From: Octopus vulgaris
Lineage: Eukaryota
Assembly (NCBI GenBank): GCA_951406725.2
Contig: OX597819.1
Location: 127,162,001-127,226,000, forward strand
Reading direction: 5' to 3'
DNA: 64,000 nt
Part shown: piece by piece, positions 9,853-56,912 of the stretch
Layout of the letters: the number at the start of each line of letters is the position of its first letter
Position numbering within the stretch: position 1 is the stretch's first letter
Made by a program: the position numbers and the translations under genes
Notes under the pieces: generated by a model
What the model was told of the DNA's origin: nothing
The model's input: the letters and a program-made list of their open reading frames with translations, nothing else
Databases searched by the model: none

Positions 9853-10444
9853 TGGCGGTGAGCTGGCAGAAACATTGGCACGCCGGGCGAAATGCGAAGT
9901 CGTATTTCGTCTGCCGTTACGTTCTGAGTTCAAATTCCGCCGAGGTCGACTTTGCCTTTCATCCTTTCGGGGTCGATAAATTAAGTACTAGTGACGCACT
10001 GGGGTCGACGGAATCGACTTAATCCGTTTTGTCTGTCCTTGTTTGTCCCCTCTATGTTTAGCCCCTTGTGGGTAGTAAAGAAATAGGTATTTCGTCTGCT
10101 GTTACGTTCTGAGTTCAAATTCCGCCGAGGTCGACTTTGCCTTTCATCCTTTCGGGGTCGATAAATTAAGTACCAGTTACGCACTGGGGTCGATAGAATC
10201 GACTTAATCCGTTTGTCTGTCCTTGTTTGTCCCCTCTGTGTTTAGCCCCTTGTGGGTAGTAAAGAAATAGGTATTTCGTCTGCCGCTACGTTCTGAGTTC
10301 AAATTCCGCCGAGGTCGACTTTGCCTTTCATCCTTTCGGGGTCGATAAATTAAGTACCAGTTACGCACTGGGGTCGACTTAATCCGTTTGTCTGTCCTTG
10401 TTTGTCCTCTCTGTGTTTAGCCCCTTGTGGGTAGTAAAGAAATA
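9853..10444 (+). mobile_element. SINE family A (Meta-domain-like core), head plus three tandem body units
   Basis: GGCGGTGAGCTGGCAGAA head; three copies of GTTCAAATTCCGCCGAGGTCGACTTTGCCTTTCATCCTTTCGGGGTCGATAAA. Confidence 0.9.
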
Positions 10445-10777
10445 TATATATCGTCTGTATATTATTTGGTCAGTCATTAGAAACGCATGTTTTGAACCCA
10501 ACAGAGTCATACAATGAAATGGTTAATAAAGATTCCCATGTTTGTTTGAACCTGTAAATAGTAATTACCAGCCAATGCTGATCAGATAGCAGGTAATGAA
10601 GCTATTTTTCCCAGGAGGACTCTGGTTGCTTTTCTTTGTGTTCATAATGAATGAGGATACGTTTGAAAGAAAGTTGCTTCGTCTATTCGTCTACCGGAAA
10701 ACGTCAAATAATACACACATAAATATATAGATATATAAAAAACCCATTTACACACACACGCAAACTCATACGCATAA

Positions 10778-44253: not shown

Positions 44254-44668
44254 TATTTCTTTACCACCCACAAGGGACTAAACACAGAGAGGACAAGCAA
44301 GGATAGACAGACGGATTAAGTCGATTATATCGACCCCAGTGAACTGGTACTTAATTTATCGGCCCCGAAAGGATGAAAGGCATAGTCGACCTCGACAGAA
44401 TTTGAACTCAGAACGTAACGGCAGACGAAATACCTATTTCTTTACTACCCACAAGGGGCTGAACACAGAGAGGACAAACAAGGACAGACAAACGGATTAA
44501 GTCGATTATATCGACCCCAGTGCGTAACTGGTACTTAATTTATCGACCCCGAAAGGACGAAAGGCAAAGTCGACTTCGGCGGAATTTGAACTCAGAACGT
44601 AGCGGCAGACGAAATACCGCTAAGCATTTCGCCCGGCGTGCTAACGTTTCTGCCAGCTCGCCGCCTTA
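44254..44668 (-). mobile_element. SINE family A, head plus two body units
   Basis: TSD CAAACACACATATAT. Confidence 0.9.
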
Positions 44669-46721: not shown

Positions 46722-47252
46722 GAAATTTAGTATTTCTGATTTATATAAATGTTTTTTCTGGTTAATAAAGGCTGGTTTGAAAAGTTAAAAAAAACCTTCT
46801 TGATTTGAACATAAAAATGTAATTTTAATCTGTGTTATCACTGCTGATAACTAAGAAGAGCTGAACAAAATGATTGCTAAAAGAGGCAACACAGTAAAAC
46901 AAGCGTACAATGGTGATGAGATTTGACTTTTCAACACCCACATGCCGGCTGGTTCTTATATTTCTCGCGAGGAGGAATCACTGTTTGAAGCTTCGCGAAT
47001 TCGTCTGATGCTGCATACATAATCTATATATCGATTTCCAACCAAACTTTCCTTACCCACGGGAATACTCGACGCATTTTAGCCGTATTGATTTTATGTC
47101 AATGACATATACTCGCTAGTCACGTGCCTAGACAAAATCTTTCCCCCCCATTATATGGGTAACAATGAATAATCCATTCACTAACATTTCAGCCAAATAC
47201 CCTACTCCATAGAATCTTGGGTACGCTATAAAAACAGCGTTAAAATACCCCC

Positions 47253-47310
<58 letters not shown>

Positions 47311-47409
47311 TGATGTGTCTGGGGAGAGTCATTTTCTTTTTGTGCCTTATTTTTTATTTATTTATCACACTCACCGGTAAAATTTCCACTGTTTTATTGT
47401 TTTATTTTC

Positions 47410-47446
47410 CTAAAATTTTCGTTGCGTCTTGCAACCTTTTCAATAG
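47410..47446 (-). ncRNA. Minimal hammerhead (U3-A8 variant)
   Basis: Minus strand CTA-TTGAAAA-G-GTTGC-aagac-GCAAC-GAAA-AT-TT-TAG, within a repeat-like segment 47305-47452. Confidence 0.65.
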
Positions 47447-47912
47447 TCTTGCCTCTGTCCGTTATTTACACTGCTTTCTTTTTGTTTGTTTGTGCGCATG
47501 TGTGTGGGTCAGCGCGTGTGTGTGTGTGCATATGCATGCATGTATGTATGTATGTATGTATGCATACGTGTGTATGTATGTTTGTATATATATGCATGTG
47601 TGTGTATGTATATATGCGTGTGTATGCCTATGTATATATGTATGCATGTGTGTGCATCTGTATGTATGTATTCTACATATTCATACGCTTGCGTGTCCGT
47701 GTTTGTGTGTGTTTTTATGCATGTTTTATATATATATGTGTATGTATGTCTGTATGTCTGTATGTCTGTATGTATGTATGTATGTATGTATGTATGTATG
47801 TATGTATGTATGCATGTATGCATGTGTATACATACATCGACACGCTTGATGCTGTGGTTTTGACTGAGAGAAAATCCCTTCATTGTCATTCTGTATGAAT
47901 ATATATATATAC

Positions 47913-47969
<57 letters not shown>

Positions 47970-47974
<5 letters not shown>

Positions 47975-49281
47975 AAACAAACTCAACTTAACACCTCGAC
48001 CTTCTACACAAACTAACGAGGAAACCGAATCGAATAAAACACCCTCCGAAATATTCGAGAAAGTTGAAAATCTATGCGATACAATGACGACATTCTTCAC
48101 AAACTTTACGAAACAAGAGCAACAAAAAGAAGGAACACATGAGAAGAACCGAGCAACTTCAACATTACAAATAAAGAACCAAGTCCTCCCCCAATGGAGA
48201 ACACTACAGCGAAACAGAAAATTCGCTTTTTGGAAAATGATACAAAATCAGAATAAAGCAGAGATTTACCAAAAATGGCTAGACTCAACACCCCTAGTCA
48301 TACCCCGTAAATTACAAATCAAACCCATCTCGGAAGAACCAGAAGAACAAAGAAAACTTTGAGAAAAAAATGTCATTAGAAAAAATGAAGCTGGAAATAG
48401 AACTACTTAAGCTGAGAGCTAAAACGAATGAAGAAAAAGTAAAAACCATAGACGAGGAAATCATCGAAGAAGTCATCAAACTAATAGACGACAACAATAC
48501 TGAAACATTAACAGCACTATGGAATGAAGAATGTGAAAAAGAGGAACTTAAGTCCCTCCAACGATGGGAAAAGAGCGTCATCTGGTTTCTAGATTATGAA
48601 ACCAACTTCAAAAATGAACACATATCCAACAACCCCTTCATAAAATTAAGCAAATCAAAACCAAATACCAATAGAACGGAACAACCACCAAGAAATCCTA
48701 CCACACTCTACACCAGAAAAGTACACCTAAAACACACCCCACACTACCTACACCAACCCCAAAACACCTACAGAGGCCCACCACACCAGTTCGAAAATAG
48801 ACATACCAACAGAGCAGAACAACCACCAAGAAATCCAAACACACTCTACACCAGAAAAATGCATTTAAAACGCACCCCACACTACCTACACCAACCCCAA
48901 AACACTTATAGGGTCCCACCACACCATTCCACGAACCTAAGAGCCACAACATACAATACTATAAAATACAACCCACATAACCAAACCAAAACGCTACTAC
49001 CAAACATCCACCCCAGGAACCAACCATACAACCATAACAAACAACAAATGCACTACGGAGGAAACAACTACCAACACAATACACCTGAGGAACTAAGACG
49101 TAACACTAGGTTCAACAACAGACTCCAGAACAGAGCACCACAAACTCACTCTGACAATTATAACAACATGAGACAGATAAATAATAGCTTTGAACATAAC
49201 TACACCAACCATTTTTTAGACCCCACACACAGGAACAGGGACACACGATGGCAAAGGACAAACAAAAGAAACCTCAGGTAA
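47970..49281 (+). pseudogene. ORF1 of the PLE: predicted helical/coiled-coil N-half and N/H/Q/P/R-rich low-complexity C-half; 5'-truncated
   Basis: ORFs 47883-48362 and 48370-49281 join into one (..EQRKL[R]EKMSLEK..) if TGA 48360-62 is a decayed CGA and one A is removed from the 7-A run. Same A/C-rich strand bias as the RT ORF, which it overlaps. Confidence 0.75.
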
Positions 49282-51546
49282 TTAAGATAATCAATCTCTC
49301 AAACAAAGAACTTACACCTAACGAAATAAGCATACTCTCCAAAGGACTTAAATTTACACCCACCCCACAACGTTCTAATTATTATGAAATGAAAGATGAT
49401 ATTTCGGAATTTTGCAGAAAACTAAGACTCACCGAGGCATTTCAAGACAAACAAATAGAGGAGGACTCAATAGCTAGAAACAAGAGCAATTACACCCCCA
49501 CCAAAGGTAAGAATAAAGCCTTAGACCGCTATTGTGACTACATAACTAATTTCCCGTTTCAATTCATCAAGAAACAAAAACACAGCCCTAACTTCAACAA
49601 AAGAGAATGGAACGACCTCATCAAACTAAGAGAAGACAAAACAATAACAATTAAGGAGGCAGATAAGGGCAACGCGATAGTAATAATGAATACAAACAAT
49701 TATAAAAATTTAGTGCTATCCCTATTAAGAGATGAAACGTATTATGAAAGGGCCCAACAGTATAACCAGCAAAAAATAATGCATAACCTTAGGACATTAA
49801 TCAACACATACCAAGAAGGACTCACGAACAAGGAGTATGAATACATCACTAACTTCAAATGCAAATCGAGTTTGTTCTATGGTATCCCTAAGGTACACAA
49901 AAGCCAAACCATTAGAGAAACGTGCAAAACATCCACCGACACACTCATCAAAATCCCTTCACCAAATGATCTTAAACTAAGACCGATAATAGCAGGGCCA
50001 GCATGTGAAACTCACCGCCTCAGCAATTTCTTAGACACACTTCTTAAACCTTTCCTAAAACACATCAAAAGCTACGTAAGAGACGATATAGATATGCTCA
50101 ACCACCTCCCTAAAACAGTCAATGAGAAAACCCTTCTAGTATCATTCGACGTAGTTAATCTTTATTCTAACATCCCTCACAACCTAGGAATAGAAGCAAT
50201 CACCTTCTGGCTGAATAACTACCCCTTTGAACTCCCAACTCGCATAAACAAAGACCTTATAATAGAAGGACTTAGATTCATTTTAGAGAACAATTATTTT
50301 ATTTTTGACAATGATTTCTACAGGCAAAGATCGGGAACAGCGATGGGCACGCGCACTGCACCATCTTTTGCCAACCCAGTGATGGGATACCTCGAGAAAA
50401 TACTATACCGGATGACACTCGAGAAATATGGAAACACCTTCGCCACCTATATCCATAACAACTGGAAAAGATACCTCGATGACTGTTTCATCATCTGGGA
50501 CAAAGGCATAGAGAAACTTGAGGAATTTAAAATTCTATTAAATGGAATAAATGACAATATACAATTCACGATGGACCACAACGAAAAAGAATTACCATTT
50601 TTAGACATCCTCATTAAGAAAACCGGCAACAAAATAGAGACAGATATCTACTATAAACCGACAGACTCTAAACAGTACCTACCCTTTGATTCATGCCACC
50701 CACGACACACTAGAATGAATGTCCCTTTTTGTTTAGCTAGAAGGATTTGCACCATAATATCAGACACAAACACCCGACACACACGTCTCCAGGAACTTAG
50801 AACCACACTCACAAATAGAAACTATCCACAGCCCCTAATAGACAGTGCAATCCAACGGGTACTTAAATTAAGTATAGAAGACCTGAGACAAACAAAACCA
50901 AAAAAGAAAGAACAATTAAAAACCCTTCCCTACATCTCTACACACAACCCACTCAACAATGAGGCCTTCAACACCATACTACAAAGCACAGCCCTACTAA
51001 AGGGAGACCCAAAGATGAACCGGATCCTCGAAACACACACCATCATTAAAAGTAAACGGCAACCAAAATCCTTGAAAAGGATTTTAACCCAAGCTACGCT
51101 GCACTCAACAGCAACCACAAAACCAGCAGTTAGAAAATGTGGAAGGCCCAACTGCGGAATCTGTGTCATCTTGAAAGAAGGATCAGAATTTATACTGGAA
51201 CAAGGCCACCAGTTCACCATTAGAACAAACTTCACCTGCGCATCAGAAAACTTAATTTACGTCATAACATGCGCAGGCTGCAATAGGCAGTATATAGGCC
51301 ATACAAAAAATAGCTTACGTAACAGGATGGCGGTGCATAAATCACAAATTAGAAACCCTGATTACCGCAAAATACCGGTCAGCGGACACATAGATAGATG
51401 TGCTGGAAATGTAAATCCGAAATTTACAACTAACCCGCTCTATAAATTCAGTGACAACGCAACCTTCACACAACGCCAAAATAAAGAACTATATTTCATA
51501 AAAAAAATTTAGACCAAGTTTAAACACCCTGGGCCAGGAATACTAA
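49248..51546 (+). CDS. Penelope-like element polyprotein (reverse transcriptase, Cys-rich linker, GIY-YIG endonuclease), Neptune-like
   Basis: 754-aa ORF with PLE motifs IINLS, LSKGLKFTPTP, IKEADKGNAIV, FYGIPKVHK, LRPIIAG, SFDVVNLYSNIP, QRSGTAMG, RYLDD and DIYYKPTD. Linker CGRPNCGIC; endonuclease LIYVITC..C..QYIGHT..LRNR..H. One extra A in the A-run near 51500 truncates the natural end FIKKFRPSLNTLGQEY* (stop ends 51546). Confidence 0.95.
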
Positions 51547-51699
51547 AACAAAAGATAAGTCCTCCGAAAAGGAGAACCAAATTTCACCACGGCCGCTACT
51601 TCAAACAGACACTCACTCTGATGGAAATATGCCTTAGTAAAAAAGGAAAAAAATTATTTCGTGCAAATCTGACCCTGATACATACGATACAGCTAAGGG

Positions 51700-52165
51700 T
51701 CAGACCCGATTCTGATTGGTCAACAAGTTGATTACGTCTAGCTCTGCTAGAATGGACAGGATACAAACAGGGGACAGTCATTAGTCAGAATATTGATGAC
51801 GTCCTTTTCTGCTTGAATAGTCACCTAACAAGTACAGACAGGGGGCAGATCTAATGTAGCTATAAGTCGTGATTGGGCAGAATCTGGATGACGTCCCGCT
51901 ATGCTTGACTAACGAAGCGACTGGTCAAGACAGGAAACAAACAAGAGGGAGTTATAATGCAGCGATTGGTCAAAATAATGATGACGTCCCGTTCCACTTG
52001 ATTAAAGCCACCTAACGAAACGATTGGTCAAAACATTGTTGACGTCACGCTACGCTAGATTGACCACCTAACAGGCATTATAAAACCGAGCATTTCACAA
52101 AAACTCACTAGAACCACCCAGCGAACTTCCACCATGGGTCATCACAATTGCTTAAGGTAAAAATG
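51700..52165 (+). promoter_or_regulatory. PLE pseudo-LTR promoter: five CCAAT/CRE modules, TATA, Inr, mini-exon and splice donor
   Basis: ATTGG/ATTAG at 51715, 51780, 51872, 51965 and 52023, each followed 12 nt later by T(G/T)ACGTC. TATAAAA at 52079, TCACT at 52105, ccaccATGg at 52134, AG|GTAAAA at 52157. Confidence 0.7.
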
Positions 52166-52409
52166 AATTCCTCGCTCTTTCGGAAACATCAATCTTCTGT
52201 ATTGACCGCTTTCCACCACTTTGATCTGTTTTTTGTATTGAATACGTATCGCCACCGTGGGCCACTGCATCGAACACTTTGAACATATACTTCAAACTAT
52301 ATATCAACTATACATGAAATATATATCAACTATACATGAACTCTAAGATGTCTGACTCCGTTGTGTATTATAAATGAATTTCTTGTGTTTGACGGCATGA
52401 GCTGTCTCT

Positions 52410-52478
52410 TTTTATATATAACTTTTTTTGATAAGGTTCATTTCAGGAACTGAAACATGTTATAATGTATATATAAAA
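52410..52478 (+). ncRNA. Minimal type I hammerhead ribozyme (U3-A8 variant) in the PLE pseudo-LTR
   Basis: TTGATAA-GGTTC-atttcag-GAACT-GAAA-CATG-TT; palindromic ACATGT stem III; imperfect AT-rich stem I. Confidence 0.65.
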
Positions 52479-52524
52479 ATTAAAAATTGTATAATACAGC
52501 AGCATTTTCGAACTTCATTTTTTT

Positions 52525-52628
<104 letters not shown>

Positions 52629-52639
52629 GTTTAAATATT

Positions 52640-54022
52640 TGTTGTGCAAATGTCCATCAGGTAAAGAAAATGATCGCACATGCACTAGGAGCTAGTATAA
52701 GAGTTACCCTAAAAGGCCACACATTTGAATTTAATAATATAATATATGCCCAGGACGAGGGGGCAGCCATCGGTGTTAGTATCGCTGGTGATGTGGCCAA
52801 CCTCTTCATGGTATGGTGGGACAGAAGGCTTAAAGAATGCCTACTGCAGAAATCCATACTCGTAAACATGTACTCTCGCTATGTTGATGATATCAATATA
52901 GTAGTAAAGGCACCCCCACAAGAGAGTAATGTTGATATAGTAATAGAAACTAATACTATGGAGAGCATCCAGCAAATAGCTAACTCCATCCACCAGAGTA
53001 TTAAGGTCACAATAGACTACCCCACTAAACACCCCAACCATAGACTACCAGTACTAGACACTGAACTCTGGCTAGAAATTGTGAAAAATAAAACCCAAAT
53101 CCTTCATTCATACTATGCAAAACCTATGGCCTCAAAATACCTGATCCACCGGAACTCAGCCATTGCGGGCAATGCCAAATTCAATATTTTGATGGCAGAC
53201 CTCGTCAGAATAATGAGAAATGTGTCACGCATGTGCGAGCCTACAGAATTAAAGAGACACATACAGTATTTCATTCACCGCATGCAGTTCTCAGGTTACA
53301 GCCATAAAGAAAGGGTCAGAGTATACAAAGGAGCCATGAAGAAATTTGATAATATATTATGTAATGATAGGAATGGGATTTGCCCACTCTATAGGAACAA
53401 GTCATGGAACACTATAGAAAGGACAAAAAAAAAAAGAAAATAGGGAAGGCCAACTCTTGGTATGATAGCCATAAATACCAGAGTGCCATGTTCGTTGACA
53501 CCACCCCTGGAGGTGAACTGGCGTACCGCTTTAGAAGGACCCTAGATAAACTTAAACTAAGAATTAAGGTTGTTGAAAAGCCAGGCAACCCTATCAGATC
53601 TATAATTGGTAGAAGCTATCCCTTTAGTAGAACTCTCTGTACGGATAACTATTGCACTGTATGTAGATTTAGCCCACAAACAAACTGTAAAGCCAAAAAT
53701 GTGGTCTATAGTATAAGATGTATAGAGGGACGATGCAGTAACAAGACAGTAACATACGTAGGGGAAACAGCAAGAAGCATTGGTGAGCGGGTGAATGAAC
53801 ATTGGAGACAACTCAAGGAAGGTAAAAGCTCATCGATTCTGTACCAACACGCTCAACAAGAACACGGGGGGATCAATCAATAACATAGAGATTAAGATAT
53901 TGTCCACACATAGAACAGATGCAACATTTAGACAAATTACAGAAGCTACACATATAAAAGAAAATAAACCTAGCCTGAATAGAAAACTAGAATGGAGCAA
54001 TAGCGCACACCACAACATATGA
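52640..54022 (+). pseudogene. Second PLE (5'-truncated RT and GIY-YIG), distinct lineage
   Basis: YAQDEGAAIG..VANLFM, YSRYVDD, LPVLD, YAKPMAS, RMQFSGYS. After a frameshift in the A-run near 53430: CTDNYCTVC, NVVYSIRC..TYVGETARSIGERVNEH. After a second shift near 53868: [22 protein letters not shown]. Confidence 0.92.
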
Positions 54023-54240
54023 CGATAGTGGATCCAGCAAACATAATAAATACACAGATAATTAAAGAAATAGAAATGAATAACTATATATATGTATATG
54101 TGTATGTATATGTGTATATGTGTGTGTATGTGTGTATATATATGTGTATGTATATGTATATGTGTGTGTATGTGTATATATATGTATATGTATGTATGTA
54201 TATATATATATGTATATATATATGTATATGTATGTATATG

Positions 54241-54283
<43 letters not shown>

Positions 54284-54329
54284 TTTTCAATTAGATTTAT
54301 TATTATTATTACTAATATTGTTGTTATAC

Positions 54330-54760
54330 ATACATACAAGCATATGTAATGATAATAATAGGTGGATGTAAACACATGAACAAAATTAGAACAAAAGCAA
54401 CAACAACAAAAACAAAATACAAATTACAAGAATGTATATAACCAGAAGATACAAATATTACAAGCATCCCCCTCACACACACACTAAATAAACATAGACG
54501 CACATAGAGATATAAGCATGCGCAAATGAAGACATACAATAGAAATACAAAATGGCTGACGGTTAGTAAGGAGAGACACAAGTAAGTGAGAAGAAAACAA
54601 AGGACCACTGATGTGGTCACAGGAGTGTGACGAAAGAACTTTGGCCGAAATAAGATTAAGATTAATGTAAAAAATAAATATCACTGAAGCAAAATAACAC
54701 CAAATATATAGTGCGTGTGTTTTTATTGGCTAAACTGGCAATATGACCATTCCGAAATAT

Positions 54761-54770
<10 letters not shown>
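54330..54770 (+). mobile_element. Pseudo-LTR/3' region of the second PLE
   Basis: Follows the ORF after a microsatellite. Contains a GTAAGT donor (54582) and a hammerhead-like motif; its last 80 bp recur in inverse orientation at 23884-23956. Confidence 0.65.
54602..54646 (+). ncRNA. Degenerate minimal hammerhead (A9U)
   Basis: CCA-CTGATGT-G-GTCAC-aggagt-GTGAC-GAAA-gaac-TT-TGG. Confidence 0.6.
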
Positions 54771-54819
<49 letters not shown>

Positions 54820-55164
54820 GGTCATTCAACAGAAGATTCTCCAAGGCAGTGCCCCAGCATGGCCGCAGTCTAATGACTGAAAGAAGTAAAAGAGATCGGG
54901 GTGATACATTTTCTCTCAGACAAGAAGCACAAGATTACACCTGTTAACGGTGTATATAAGTTAAGCTTGATATATAGATAACTATTTTAATCTAATGCTG
55001 TTTCATTTGCGTATACTAAGGATCGAATAGAAGAGGTTCGTACATTATTTGTTCAGTAGTGGAGGAAATATTTCCCTCGCAATTTTAGAGAAAATTGTAG
55101 TATTAGTAGCAGAAACAGAATGAAGGATTACTGTGTATATGGCCTAGTGGTTATAGCATGGTAG

Positions 55165-56077: not shown

Positions 56078-56912
56078 GAAGAAGAAGAAGAAGAAGAAGA
56101 AGAAGAAGAAGAAGAAGAAGAAGAAGAAGAAGAAGAAGAAGAAGAAGAAGAAGAAGGGGAAGAAGAAGAAGAAGGAGAAGAAGAAGAAGAAGGAGAAGAA
56201 GAAGAAGAAGAAGACGAAGAAGAAGAAGGAGAAGACGAAGAAGAAGACGAAGAAGAAGAAGAAGAAGAAGAAGAAGAAGAATACGAAGAAGAAGAAGAAG
56301 AAGAAGAAGGAGAAGAAGAAGAAGAAGGAGAAGACGAAGAAGAAGAAGGAGAAGACGAAGAAGAAGACGAAGAAGAAGAAGAAGAAGAAGACGAAGAAGA
56401 ATACGAAGAAGAAGAAGAAGAAGAAGAAGAAGAAGAAGAAGGAGAAGACGAAGAAGAAGAAGACGAAGAAGAAGAAGGAGAAGACGAAGAAGAAGACGAA
56501 GAAGAAGAAGAAGACGAAGAAGAAGAAGAAGAAGAAGAAGGAGAAGAAGGAGAAGACGAAGAAGAAGAAGACGAAGAAGAAGAAGGAGAAGACGAAGAAG
56601 AAGACGAAGAAGACGAAGAAGAAGAAGAAGAAGAAGAAGAAGAAGAAGAAGAAGAAGAAGAAGAAGAAGAAGAAGAAGAAGAAGAAGAAGAAGAAGAAGA
56701 CGAAGAAGAAGAAGAAGAAGGAGAAGACGAAGAAGAAGACGAAGAAGAAGAAGAAGAAGAAGACGAAGAAGAAGAAGAAGAAGAAGAAGAAGAAGACGAA
56801 GAAGAAGAAGAAGACGAAGAAGAAGAAGAAGAAGAACAACAACAACAACAGCAATAACAACAGCAGCAACAACAAAAACAACAACAACGACGACGACGAC
56901 GACGGCGGCGGC
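56078..56912. repeat. (GAA)n tract with GAC/GGA variants, grading into (CAA)/(CGA)/(CGG)
   Basis: Direct reading. Confidence 0.98.

What the first reader, a model, noticed from the sequence alone, without database searches (positions are those of the whole stretch)
51700..52165. Pseudo-LTR promoter built from five CCAAT-CRE modules with invariant 12-nt spacing, followed by TATA and Inr
Seen: ATTGG-tcaacaagttga-TTACGTC, ATTAG-tcagaatattga-TGACGTC, ATTGG-gcagaatctgga-TGACGTC, ATTGG-tcaaaataatga-TGACGTC and ATTGG-tcaaaacattgt-TGACGTCA. Spacer sequence and module-to-module distance (65, 92, 93, 58 nt) vary, while the motifs and the 12-nt gap are kept. TATAAAA at 52079 lies 28 nt before an Inr-like TCA(+1)CT. 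Established: ATTGG is the NF-Y site and TGACGT(CA) the CREB/ATF site. Inference: a selected composite enhancer that could make this retroelement, and neighbouring DNA, responsive to cAMP, stress or neuronal activity.
Basis: partly seen in the sequence, partly recalled or inferred. Interest (0 to 1): 0.75.

Follow-up and report, generated by a model that had tools for sequence, protein, structure and literature searches.

The report
Penelope retroelement carries LTR-like promoter
The end repeat of a jumping gene with hundreds of copies in this genome (probably an octopus) holds stacked motif pairs at a fixed 12-base distance that likely bind two common activators and likely start transcription, and assembled sequences that are probably RNA join this repeat, at splice-type junctions, to neighbouring DNA including a zinc-finger gene.

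Summary
Observation confirmed. The five ATTGG-N12-TGACGT modules, the TATA box and the Inr-like site lie in the 3' pseudo-LTR of a young Neptune-type Penelope-like element; other copies place this region upstream of ORF1. Tandem duplication explains why there are five modules but not the spacing. 2056 of 2220 genome hits (spacers 9-15) are N12. The gap survives spacer turnover and an inversion in a family about 42% identical in ORF2, and unselected flanks fit NF-Y and CRE consensus. TATA and a splice donor at 52156 persist across subfamilies. Contigs from two studies (RNA status guessed) leave the repeat exactly at this donor and continue at genomic AG acceptors beside other copies, one being the coding exon of a C2H2 zinc-finger gene. 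Best reading: a U3-like NF-Y/bZIP promoter, unlike the internal TATA-less promoter of fly Penelope but similar to NF-Y/AP-1 spacing in human LTRs. Not shown: start site, factor binding, cAMP or neuronal response; exonisation from an upstream host promoter is not excluded. The window copy is truncated and has no identified gene downstream. The scan's notes held no look-alike sequence.

The parts
47972..52520 (+). 5'-truncated copy of a young Neptune-type Penelope-like element inserted in (TA)n
   Evidence: copies 99% identical over the 3' 831 nt, 997 first-look candidates, 40 scored
48298..49281 (+). ORF1 remnant (the ORF1 start is lost by truncation and a small indel breaks the frame; other copies read about 466 aa)
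49200..51512 (+). ORF2: reverse transcriptase, CX4CX2C linker, C-terminal GIY-YIG endonuclease (770 aa stop to stop)
   Evidence: RVT_1 E 1.2e-5 (25.5 bits, below the 29.6 cut-off), GIY-YIG E 6.9e-5 (above cut-off); 848 homologs
51715..51737 (+). Module 1, ATTGG-N12-TTACGT (CRE damaged in this copy)
51780..51802 (+). Module 2, ATTAG-N12-TGACGT (imperfect CCAAT)
51872..51894 (+). Module 3, ATTGG-N12-TGACGT
51965..51987 (+). Module 4, ATTGG-N12-TGACGT
52023..52047 (+). Module 5, ATTGG-N12-TGACGTCA (full CRE palindrome), CCAAT about 84 nt before the predicted start
52079..52085 (+). TATA box, kept in sister subfamilies; 366 exact last-CRE-plus-TATA matches in the genome
52104..52109 (+). Inr-like site, predicted +1 at 52107 (not measured; hexamer not conserved in sister subfamilies)
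52117..52122 (+). CCCAG|C, possible cryptic splice acceptor; one contig enters the repeat here from foreign sequence
   Evidence: (X9, L034:938)
52154..52162 (+). Splice donor AAG|GTAAAA (exon ends 52156); kept 77-88 nt after TATA in subfamilies; contigs leave the repeat exactly here
52405..52482 (+). Minimal hammerhead-like motif, U3-A8 core variant with palindromic ACAUGU (by eye; activity untested)
   Evidence: no Rfam hammerhead hit
52521..52627 (.). (TA)n target tract at the 3' junction

Best explanation
The modules are tandem-duplicated CCAAT/CRE pairs in the 3' pseudo-LTR of a Neptune-type Penelope-like retroelement, and they likely act as an upstream, U3-like RNA polymerase II promoter in which NF-Y and a CREB/ATF-family bZIP are predicted to bind at a fixed 12-nt distance. 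Mechanism: (1, shown) insertions form partial tandems, so the 3' region of one copy lands upstream of ORF1 of the next. (2, inferred) NF-Y binds the reverse CCAAT, a bZIP dimer binds the CRE on its 5' side, and the array activates a TATA-directed start near 52107. (3, supported by contigs whose RNA status is guessed) a roughly 50-nt first exon ends at the donor at 52156. (4, junctions shown, start inferred) in terminal or solo copies the same exon splices to downstream acceptors, e.g. the coding exon of a 9-finger C2H2 gene, so the repeat would serve as a mobile alternative promoter. The window copy is a terminal one; its promoter would fire into (TA)n and a fragment of another element. Which signal drives it (cAMP, stress, germ line) is unknown.
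For: pLTR: 20 of 30 ORF1-selected copies carry part of this region upstream of ORF1, 12 with TATA, 7 with at least one whole module. Spacing: 2056 of 2220 GATTGG-N9..15-TGACGTC hits are N12; reversed-pattern control at N12 gives 36. In 20 distinct modules from several subfamilies and families, positions not in the search pattern fit the consensus: G before ATTGG 17/20, pyrimidines after it 19/20 and 20/20, C after TGACGT 20/20; between-lineage identity of the spacer core is 0.38 against 0.31 for flanks. In 12 loci, 27 of 53 TGACGT have ATTGG exactly 12 nt upstream and 1 at any other distance of 3-30. A family about 42% identical in ORF2 (L154; also L094, L146) has the same pair inverted relative to its ORF, which favours a double-stranded DNA function. 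TATA and AAG|GTAA are kept while the exon sequence and the upstream ATG change. Contigs of X1 and X9 (two studies) leave the repeat at L034:972 = window 52156; their next 30 letters map to C9:60907554 after tttcAG and C15:30698083 after ttgcAG, 1.1 kb and 0.6 kb downstream of same-strand pLTR copies. The C9 exon holds a 258-aa zinc-finger ORF; its paralog has an empty TA site. Four of 8 closest ORF2 relatives from other organisms have ACGTC clusters just after ORF2 (0 of 300 shuffles each). Literature passages: AP-1 10-11 bp and E box 11-12 bp 5' of CCAAT, the AP-1 case only in LTRs; CCAAT about 80 bp upstream of starts in either orientation (PMC3730095; PMC7793273).
Against: No start site, binding or reporter data. 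Each junction rests on one contig with 30 letters shown; 12 loose-end rows were hidden; no DNA run was laid as control. In the C9 gene the repeat lies in a probable first intron, so the exon could be reached from the host promoter; one X9 contig enters the repeat at 52122 after an AG, from C5:97088163, where G000 has no pLTR within 50 kb downstream. No joint removing an intron inside the element's own transcript was seen, and one X1 contig runs unspliced from L034:1159 into ORF1. The N12 count is dominated by copy number. The motif columns are selected by the pattern, and one N12 pair per locus is there by selection. Four tandem copies keep CRE and TATA but lose the last CCAAT. No CCAAT-N12-CRE pair was found in 120 related loci from other organisms. 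The Inr hexamer is not conserved.
Confidence: 0.72

Rival explanations
1. The promoter is real and additionally signal-inducible: CREB/ATF1 on the CRE array makes the element and captured host genes respond to cAMP or neuronal activity.
For: CRE core conserved in all 20 distinct modules; TATA-containing CRE promoters are the cAMP-inducible class in mammals (recalled, no call); one target is a C2H2 zinc-finger gene.
Against: No expression data by tissue or stimulus. Only one of five modules has the full palindrome. TGACGTC is also bound by ATF2/ATF7/Jun and other bZIPs (recalled); PMC7793273 reports a positional bias for ATF2, ATF3 and ATF4 but not ATF1 in K562.
Confidence: 0.25
2. The junction contigs reflect exonisation: host transcripts start upstream and pick up a short repeat-derived exon (cryptic acceptor at 52121, donor at 52156); the modules may be an enhancer or promoter for the element but do not start host transcripts.
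For: The C9 copy lies downstream of an exon-like segment ending in TAG|GTAAAT that its paralog shares; X9 has a contig entering at 52122 after CCCAG.
Against: No X1 loose end at that acceptor among the rows shown (12 rows hidden); the C5 junction is not a clean GT donor in G000 and has no pLTR downstream, so it may be a polymorphic DNA insertion.
Confidence: 0.2
3. The fixed spacing is a neutral by-product of tandem duplication and recent amplification of one ancestral 23-nt unit; no two-factor geometry is selected.
For: Modules share flanks and vary in number; modules of families A and B look homologous; copies are 99% identical; related elements in other organisms lack the pair.
Against: Spacer cores are near flank-level identity between lineages while motifs, unselected consensus flanks and the exact gap persist; hits not assigned to repeats peak at N11-13 (28 of 37, hand tally; p 5e-5) while the opposite-side control is 18 hits with no such peak.
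Confidence: 0.1
4. The repeats act at RNA level or as sites for the element's own proteins (template recognition or switching) and not as host transcription-factor sites.
For: 5' ends of upstream pLTRs cluster at 52006-52037 (6 of 20; p about 1e-5), inside modules 4-5.
Against: The pair is inverted relative to the ORF in family B, so the RNA sequence differs; flanks follow NF-Y consensus.
Confidence: 0.05

Closest known systems
Drosophila virilis Penelope pLTR promoter (Schostak 2008, PMC2377424; passages read)
   Same: Promoter in the pLTR formed by partial tandems; splice donor shortly after the start (46 bp there, about 50 nt after the predicted start here); authors predicted that a 3' pLTR could drive downstream genes or exons.
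   Different: Penelope's promoter is internal and TATA-less; here the motifs and TATA lie upstream of the predicted start, as in an LTR U3 region or HeT-A, and form a modular array.
NF-Y stereo-positioned composites in human promoters and LTRs (Fleming 2013 PMC3730095, Dolfini 2016 PMC4889920, Ronzio 2020 PMC7793273; passages read)
   Same: bZIP or bHLH site 10-12 bp on the 5' side of CCAAT; AP-1/CCAAT spacing found in LTR repeats; LTR12/ERV-9 uses tandem CCAAT-containing repeats to drive host genes.
   Different: CRE and not AP-1 or E box; an invertebrate non-LTR-type element, not a retroviral LTR; distances may be measured differently; binding was shown there and is untested here.
Neptune/Nematis-type PLEs (Craig 2021, PMC8557442; passages) with minimal hammerheads (Cervera and de la Pena 2014, PMC4209133; parts 1-2 of 4)
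   Same: RT plus C-terminal GIY-YIG, CX2-5CxxC linker, pLTRs, inverted truncated copies, 30-40 bp tail, (TA)n targets, ORF1 separated by a frameshift, U3-A8 hammerhead variant.
   Different: The passages read describe no upstream CCAAT/CRE/TATA promoter for these clades.

Membership tests
Penelope-like element, Neptune/Nematis type | RT followed by C-terminal GIY-YIG endonuclease | tested here: met
   (RT under Pfam cut-off, E 1.2e-5; GIY-YIG above cut-off)
Penelope-like element, Neptune/Nematis type | CX2-5CxxC linker upstream of GIY-YIG | tested here: met
   CGRPNCGIC in the ORF2 translation; definition from PMC8557442
Penelope-like element, Neptune/Nematis type | Partial-tandem pLTRs and inverted 5'-truncated copies | tested here: met
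   20 of 30 copies with upstream pLTR sequence; inverted pieces in L023, L030, L047, L056, L058
Penelope-like element, Neptune/Nematis type | (TA)n target and 30-40 bp tail on some insertions | tested here: met
   3' junctions in TA tracts; an extension of about 36 nt in 9 of 30 copies
Penelope-like element, Neptune/Nematis type | Hammerhead ribozyme in the pLTR | tested here: inconclusive
   U3-A8 minimal motif by eye in window and L100; no Rfam hammerhead hit; fold z -1.35 and -0.22
Penelope-like element, Neptune/Nematis type | RT phylogeny places it in Neptune and not Nematis | not tested
   no named reference set was fetched; the clade label rests on the linker motif and targets
NF-Y/bZIP stereo-positioned promoter module | CCAAT with NF-Y-type flanks | tested here: met
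   unselected positions 17/20, 19/20, 20/20; flank consensus RRCCAATC recalled
NF-Y/bZIP stereo-positioned promoter module | bZIP site 10-12 bp on the 5' side of CCAAT, side-specific | tested here: met
   12 nt edge to edge; opposite side 18 hits against 102 on this side; papers may count distance from other reference points
NF-Y/bZIP stereo-positioned promoter module | Occupancy by NF-Y and a bZIP; dependence of transcription on both sites | not testable with these tools
   needs ChIP/CUT&RUN, EMSA, reporter
D. virilis Penelope-type internal promoter | TATA-less promoter inside the transcribed region | tested here: not met
   conserved TATA and activator motifs lie upstream of the first exon; start inferred, not measured
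D. virilis Penelope-type internal promoter | Splice donor about 50 nt after the start in the pLTR | tested here: met
   donor at 52156, used in junction contigs; 50 nt after the predicted start
ER-stress element (ERSE, CCAAT-N9-CCACG; recalled) | CCACG 9 nt on the 3' side of CCAAT | tested here: not met
   the partner here is TGACGTC, 12 nt away on the 5' side
cAMP-inducible CRE promoter | Induction through PKA/CREB | not testable with these tools
   no stimulus or tissue data obtained

The most novel reading that the evidence does not exclude
An octopus Penelope-like family has converged on a retroviral-LTR-style enhancer-promoter by adding NF-Y sites to an older CRE cluster, and hundreds of its copies act as mobile, cAMP- or activity-responsive first exons that are rewiring host genes, including members of the expanded C2H2 zinc-finger clusters.
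Probability: 0.2. Interest if true: 0.8.

Novelty: new variant of a known kind. Interest (0 to 1): 0.52.

Why it matters
Only one canonical PLE promoter has been dissected, and it is internal and TATA-less. An upstream, modular CCAAT/CRE/TATA promoter would explain why this family depends on partial tandems and would show LTR-like convergence in a separate retroelement class. The junctions into a zinc-finger gene give named loci where the 2008 prediction that a 3' pLTR can drive downstream exons can be tested directly. The two-factor geometry itself is already known from human data, which limits the surprise.

Tried and rejected
No RNA holder listed: none of the runs is on record as RNA; the four laid runs are Logan contigs with guessed RNA status. 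Summed contig depth rises between L034:919 and 954 in X1 (63 to 938) and X8 (319 to 1170), less in X9 and X2; contigs cannot show starts or levels, so this is not counted as evidence. A second read-laying on the C9 locus gave no result, so the joint was not seen as a laid joint and no DNA control exists. Rfam scan of 47000-55000: only microsatellite-driven hits. The Kozak-context ATG at 52134 was rejected as functional: lost in L140, L103, L134 and the C15 copy. A signal-peptide reading of the C15 exon was dropped: the 93-nt exon is also open in another frame, and neither PDB (best E 0.47) nor Pfam named it. Whether non-repeat CCAAT-CRE pairs are host promoters is unresolved: 57 of 170 ORFs from 9 loci scanned gave one hit inside a zinc-finger coding region and one RT fragment. 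CpG content of the array (o/e 0.88) is within background (median 0.63, upper quartile 0.91). The reversed-pattern control is not CpG-matched and exceeded the filtered pattern (190 against 102), so the opposite-side pattern was used. No stimulatory structure was found after the slippery site (z 0.69). 50 of 94 other window ORFs scanned gave no Pfam hit. Paper searches: octopus+Penelope+transposable element+promoter+C2H2 gave 0; CCAAT+TGACGTCA+NF-Y+CREB+LTR gave 2 retrovirus reviews (listing only); the top 20 of 97 chimeric-transcript papers were not on PLE promoters (listing only). Supplements were not read and subscription papers are outside the library, so absence from print is not established.

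Full report
Observation. The pattern ATTRG-N12-TKACGT occurs five times in the window, at 51715, 51780, 51872, 51965 and 52023, against 0.18 expected. Module 1 has a damaged CRE in this copy only (L034 reads TGACGT), module 2 has ATTAG, and only module 5 has the full palindrome.

Context. The region is the 3' end of a Penelope-like element spanning 47972-52520 between TA tracts. [quoted passage not shown] The genome is 2.8 Gb in 227 contigs. That it is an octopus is my inference from size, repeats and zinc-finger clusters, echoed by unchecked scan notes; I ran no taxonomic test. The family is young: the 40 best-scored of 997 candidates are 99-100% identical. Of 30 copies chosen on the ORF1 5' region, 20 carry part of this 3' region directly upstream of ORF1, 12 include TATA and 7 include at least one whole module, so it is a true pseudo-LTR. 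The window copy is truncated inside ORF1 and has no upstream pLTR; its promoter region faces a TA tract and a fragment of a different PLE. No Pfam hit was found in the 50 of 94 other window ORFs scanned.

Is the spacing more than duplication? The five modules share flanks and their number varies between copies, so they are duplicates. Genome-wide, 2056 of 2220 hits for spacers 9-15 are N12, but copy number drives this. The stronger tests are these. (a) In 20 distinct modules (37 collapsed at 80% identity) positions outside the search pattern match NF-Y and CRE consensus (G before ATTGG 17/20; pyrimidines after it 19/20 and 20/20; C after TGACGT 20/20), while between-lineage identity of the spacer core is 0.38 against 0.31 in flanks (the motif columns themselves are selected). 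(b) In 12 loci, 27 of 53 TGACGT sites have ATTGG at exactly 12 nt and one at any other distance from 3 to 30 (one pair per locus is there by selection, and palindromes count on both strands). (c) A family about 42% identical in ORF2 (L154, with L094, L146 and others) carries up to three such pairs inverted relative to its ORF, which points to a DNA-level function. (d) With the main spacers excluded, 100 of 102 hits were listed; my hand tally by length is N9 1, N10 2, N11 11, N12 71, N13 9, N14 5, N15 1. After setting aside 63 hits assigned to repeats, largely by eye, 28 of 37 fall at N11-13 (p 5e-5), whereas the opposite-side pattern gives 18 hits with no such peak. I could not show that these singletons are host promoters.

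Core promoter. In window, L034, L112, L140, L103, L134 and L109 a TATA box lies 50-61 nt after the start of the last module and AAG|GTAA follows 77-88 nt later, although the exon sequence differs; L100 and L099 keep the donor without a pattern-matching TATA, and L096 keeps TATA with no family donor in the stretch shown. The upstream ATG and the exact Inr hexamer are not kept. 366 genomic sites match the last CRE plus TATA exactly.

Transcript evidence. Four runs (Logan contigs, RNA status guessed) were laid on L034. One contig each in X1 and X9, from different studies and organism labels, leaves the repeat exactly at the donor (L034:972 = window 52156). The X1 letters map to two paralogous sites on C9, both after a pyrimidine tract and AG; only C9:60907554 has a pLTR copy upstream (60905994-60906800, same strand; intron 1117 nt), and the exon holds a 258-aa, nine-finger C2H2 ORF. 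The paralog has an empty TA site, and both share an upstream exon-like segment ending TAG|GTAAAT, so the repeat sits in a probable first intron. The X9 letters map with one mismatch to C15:30698083 after ttgcAG, 595 nt downstream of the donor of a solo pLTR, with a second copy 22 kb upstream; the 93-nt exon was not identified. Against a simple promoter reading: another X9 loose end enters the repeat at 52122 after CCCAG from C5:97088163, where G000 has no pLTR in the next 50 kb; no splice inside the element's own transcript was seen; each junction is a single contig; 12 loose-end rows were hidden; and no DNA control or start-site data were obtained.

Evolutionary depth. Among 120 related loci from other organisms no ATTGG-N12-TGACGY pair was found. 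However, 4 of the 8 closest near-complete relatives examined (42-46% identity) have 4-5 ACGTC cores in the 250 nt after ORF2 (0 of 300 shuffles each), one is borderline and three have none; 0 of 7 more distant ones have a cluster. CRE clusters thus look older than the CCAAT pairing; I infer that the pairing arose in the lineage of this genome's families.

Mechanism. Shown: element type, pLTR arrangement, motif and gap conservation, inversion, conserved TATA and donor, and junction sequences at two loci. Inferred: NF-Y plus a CREB/ATF-type bZIP bind the pair, activate a TATA-directed start near 52107, and the 50-nt first exon precedes ORF1 in tandems or splices to host exons in terminal copies. 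Because the promoter lies upstream of the start, it is copied only as the 3' UTR and would be restored to the front by tandem formation, as for an LTR U3 or HeT-A. cAMP or neuronal control is a guess from the motif alone.

Comparison. D. virilis Penelope has an internal TATA-less promoter with a donor 46 bp after the start, and its authors predicted downstream-gene activation by 3' pLTRs (PMC2377424, passages). Human data show AP-1 10-11 bp and E boxes 11-12 bp 5' of CCAAT, the former only in LTRs (PMC3730095, passages; PMC7793273 and PMC4889920, passages). PMC4209133 (parts 1-2 of 4) describes the U3-A8 hammerhead variant seen by eye at 52428-52461; PMC11167929 (part 1 of 4) gave background on tails. 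So the element class, the pLTR promoter and the factor geometry are each known; their combination as an upstream modular promoter in a PLE, with junctions to a host zinc-finger exon, was not found in my searches, which cover only the open library.

Verdict. Real and probably functional; a new variant of a known kind; interest 0.52.

Noticed in passing
window 49212-49218: ORF1 and ORF2 overlap with ORF2 in the -1 frame at T TTT TTA, a canonical slippery heptamer (recalled); PMC8557442 notes ORF1 frameshifts in PLEs. No stable downstream structure predicted.
   Followed up: partly
L036, L037, L045, L047, L052, L060 (window-equivalent 52006-52037): 5' ends of upstream pLTRs cluster in a 32-nt span inside modules 4-5 (6 of 20); terminal copies end more evenly across the array. 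Unexplained: RT pause, alternative RNA 5' end or shared ancestry.
   Followed up: partly
window 51752, 51817, 51909, 52002, 52060: Each module has a degenerate ATTGG-like word 37 nt after its CCAAT box, and CCACCTAAC follows modules 2, 4 and 5; possibly a decayed second CCAAT or a third factor site.
   Followed up: no
L100, L096, L099, L109, L134 versus window: Subfamilies 90-96% identical in ORF2 have largely replaced promoter regions, i.e. promoter turnover faster than coding change.
   Followed up: partly
L207:2943-3200 and L209: Related PLEs lacking CRE clusters carry TTATGTA-like repeats (3 in L207), resembling PAR-bZIP/NFIL3 sites (recalled); the clade may switch between bZIP sites.
   Followed up: partly
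window 52630-54060: 5'-truncated fragment of a second PLE family (RT and GIY-YIG remnants) directly downstream in the same TA tract.
   Followed up: partly
G000:C9:60853000-60917000: Cluster of at least 7 single-exon C2H2 zinc-finger ORFs with an inverted paralog pair.
   Followed up: partly
L285-L324: PLE sequences occur in bacterial genome bins of genome contigs, most likely host DNA contamination.
   Followed up: no
window 56078-56836; 9902-10457 and 44254-44618: 760-nt GAA-type tract and two arrays of a 184-nt repeat.
   Followed up: no
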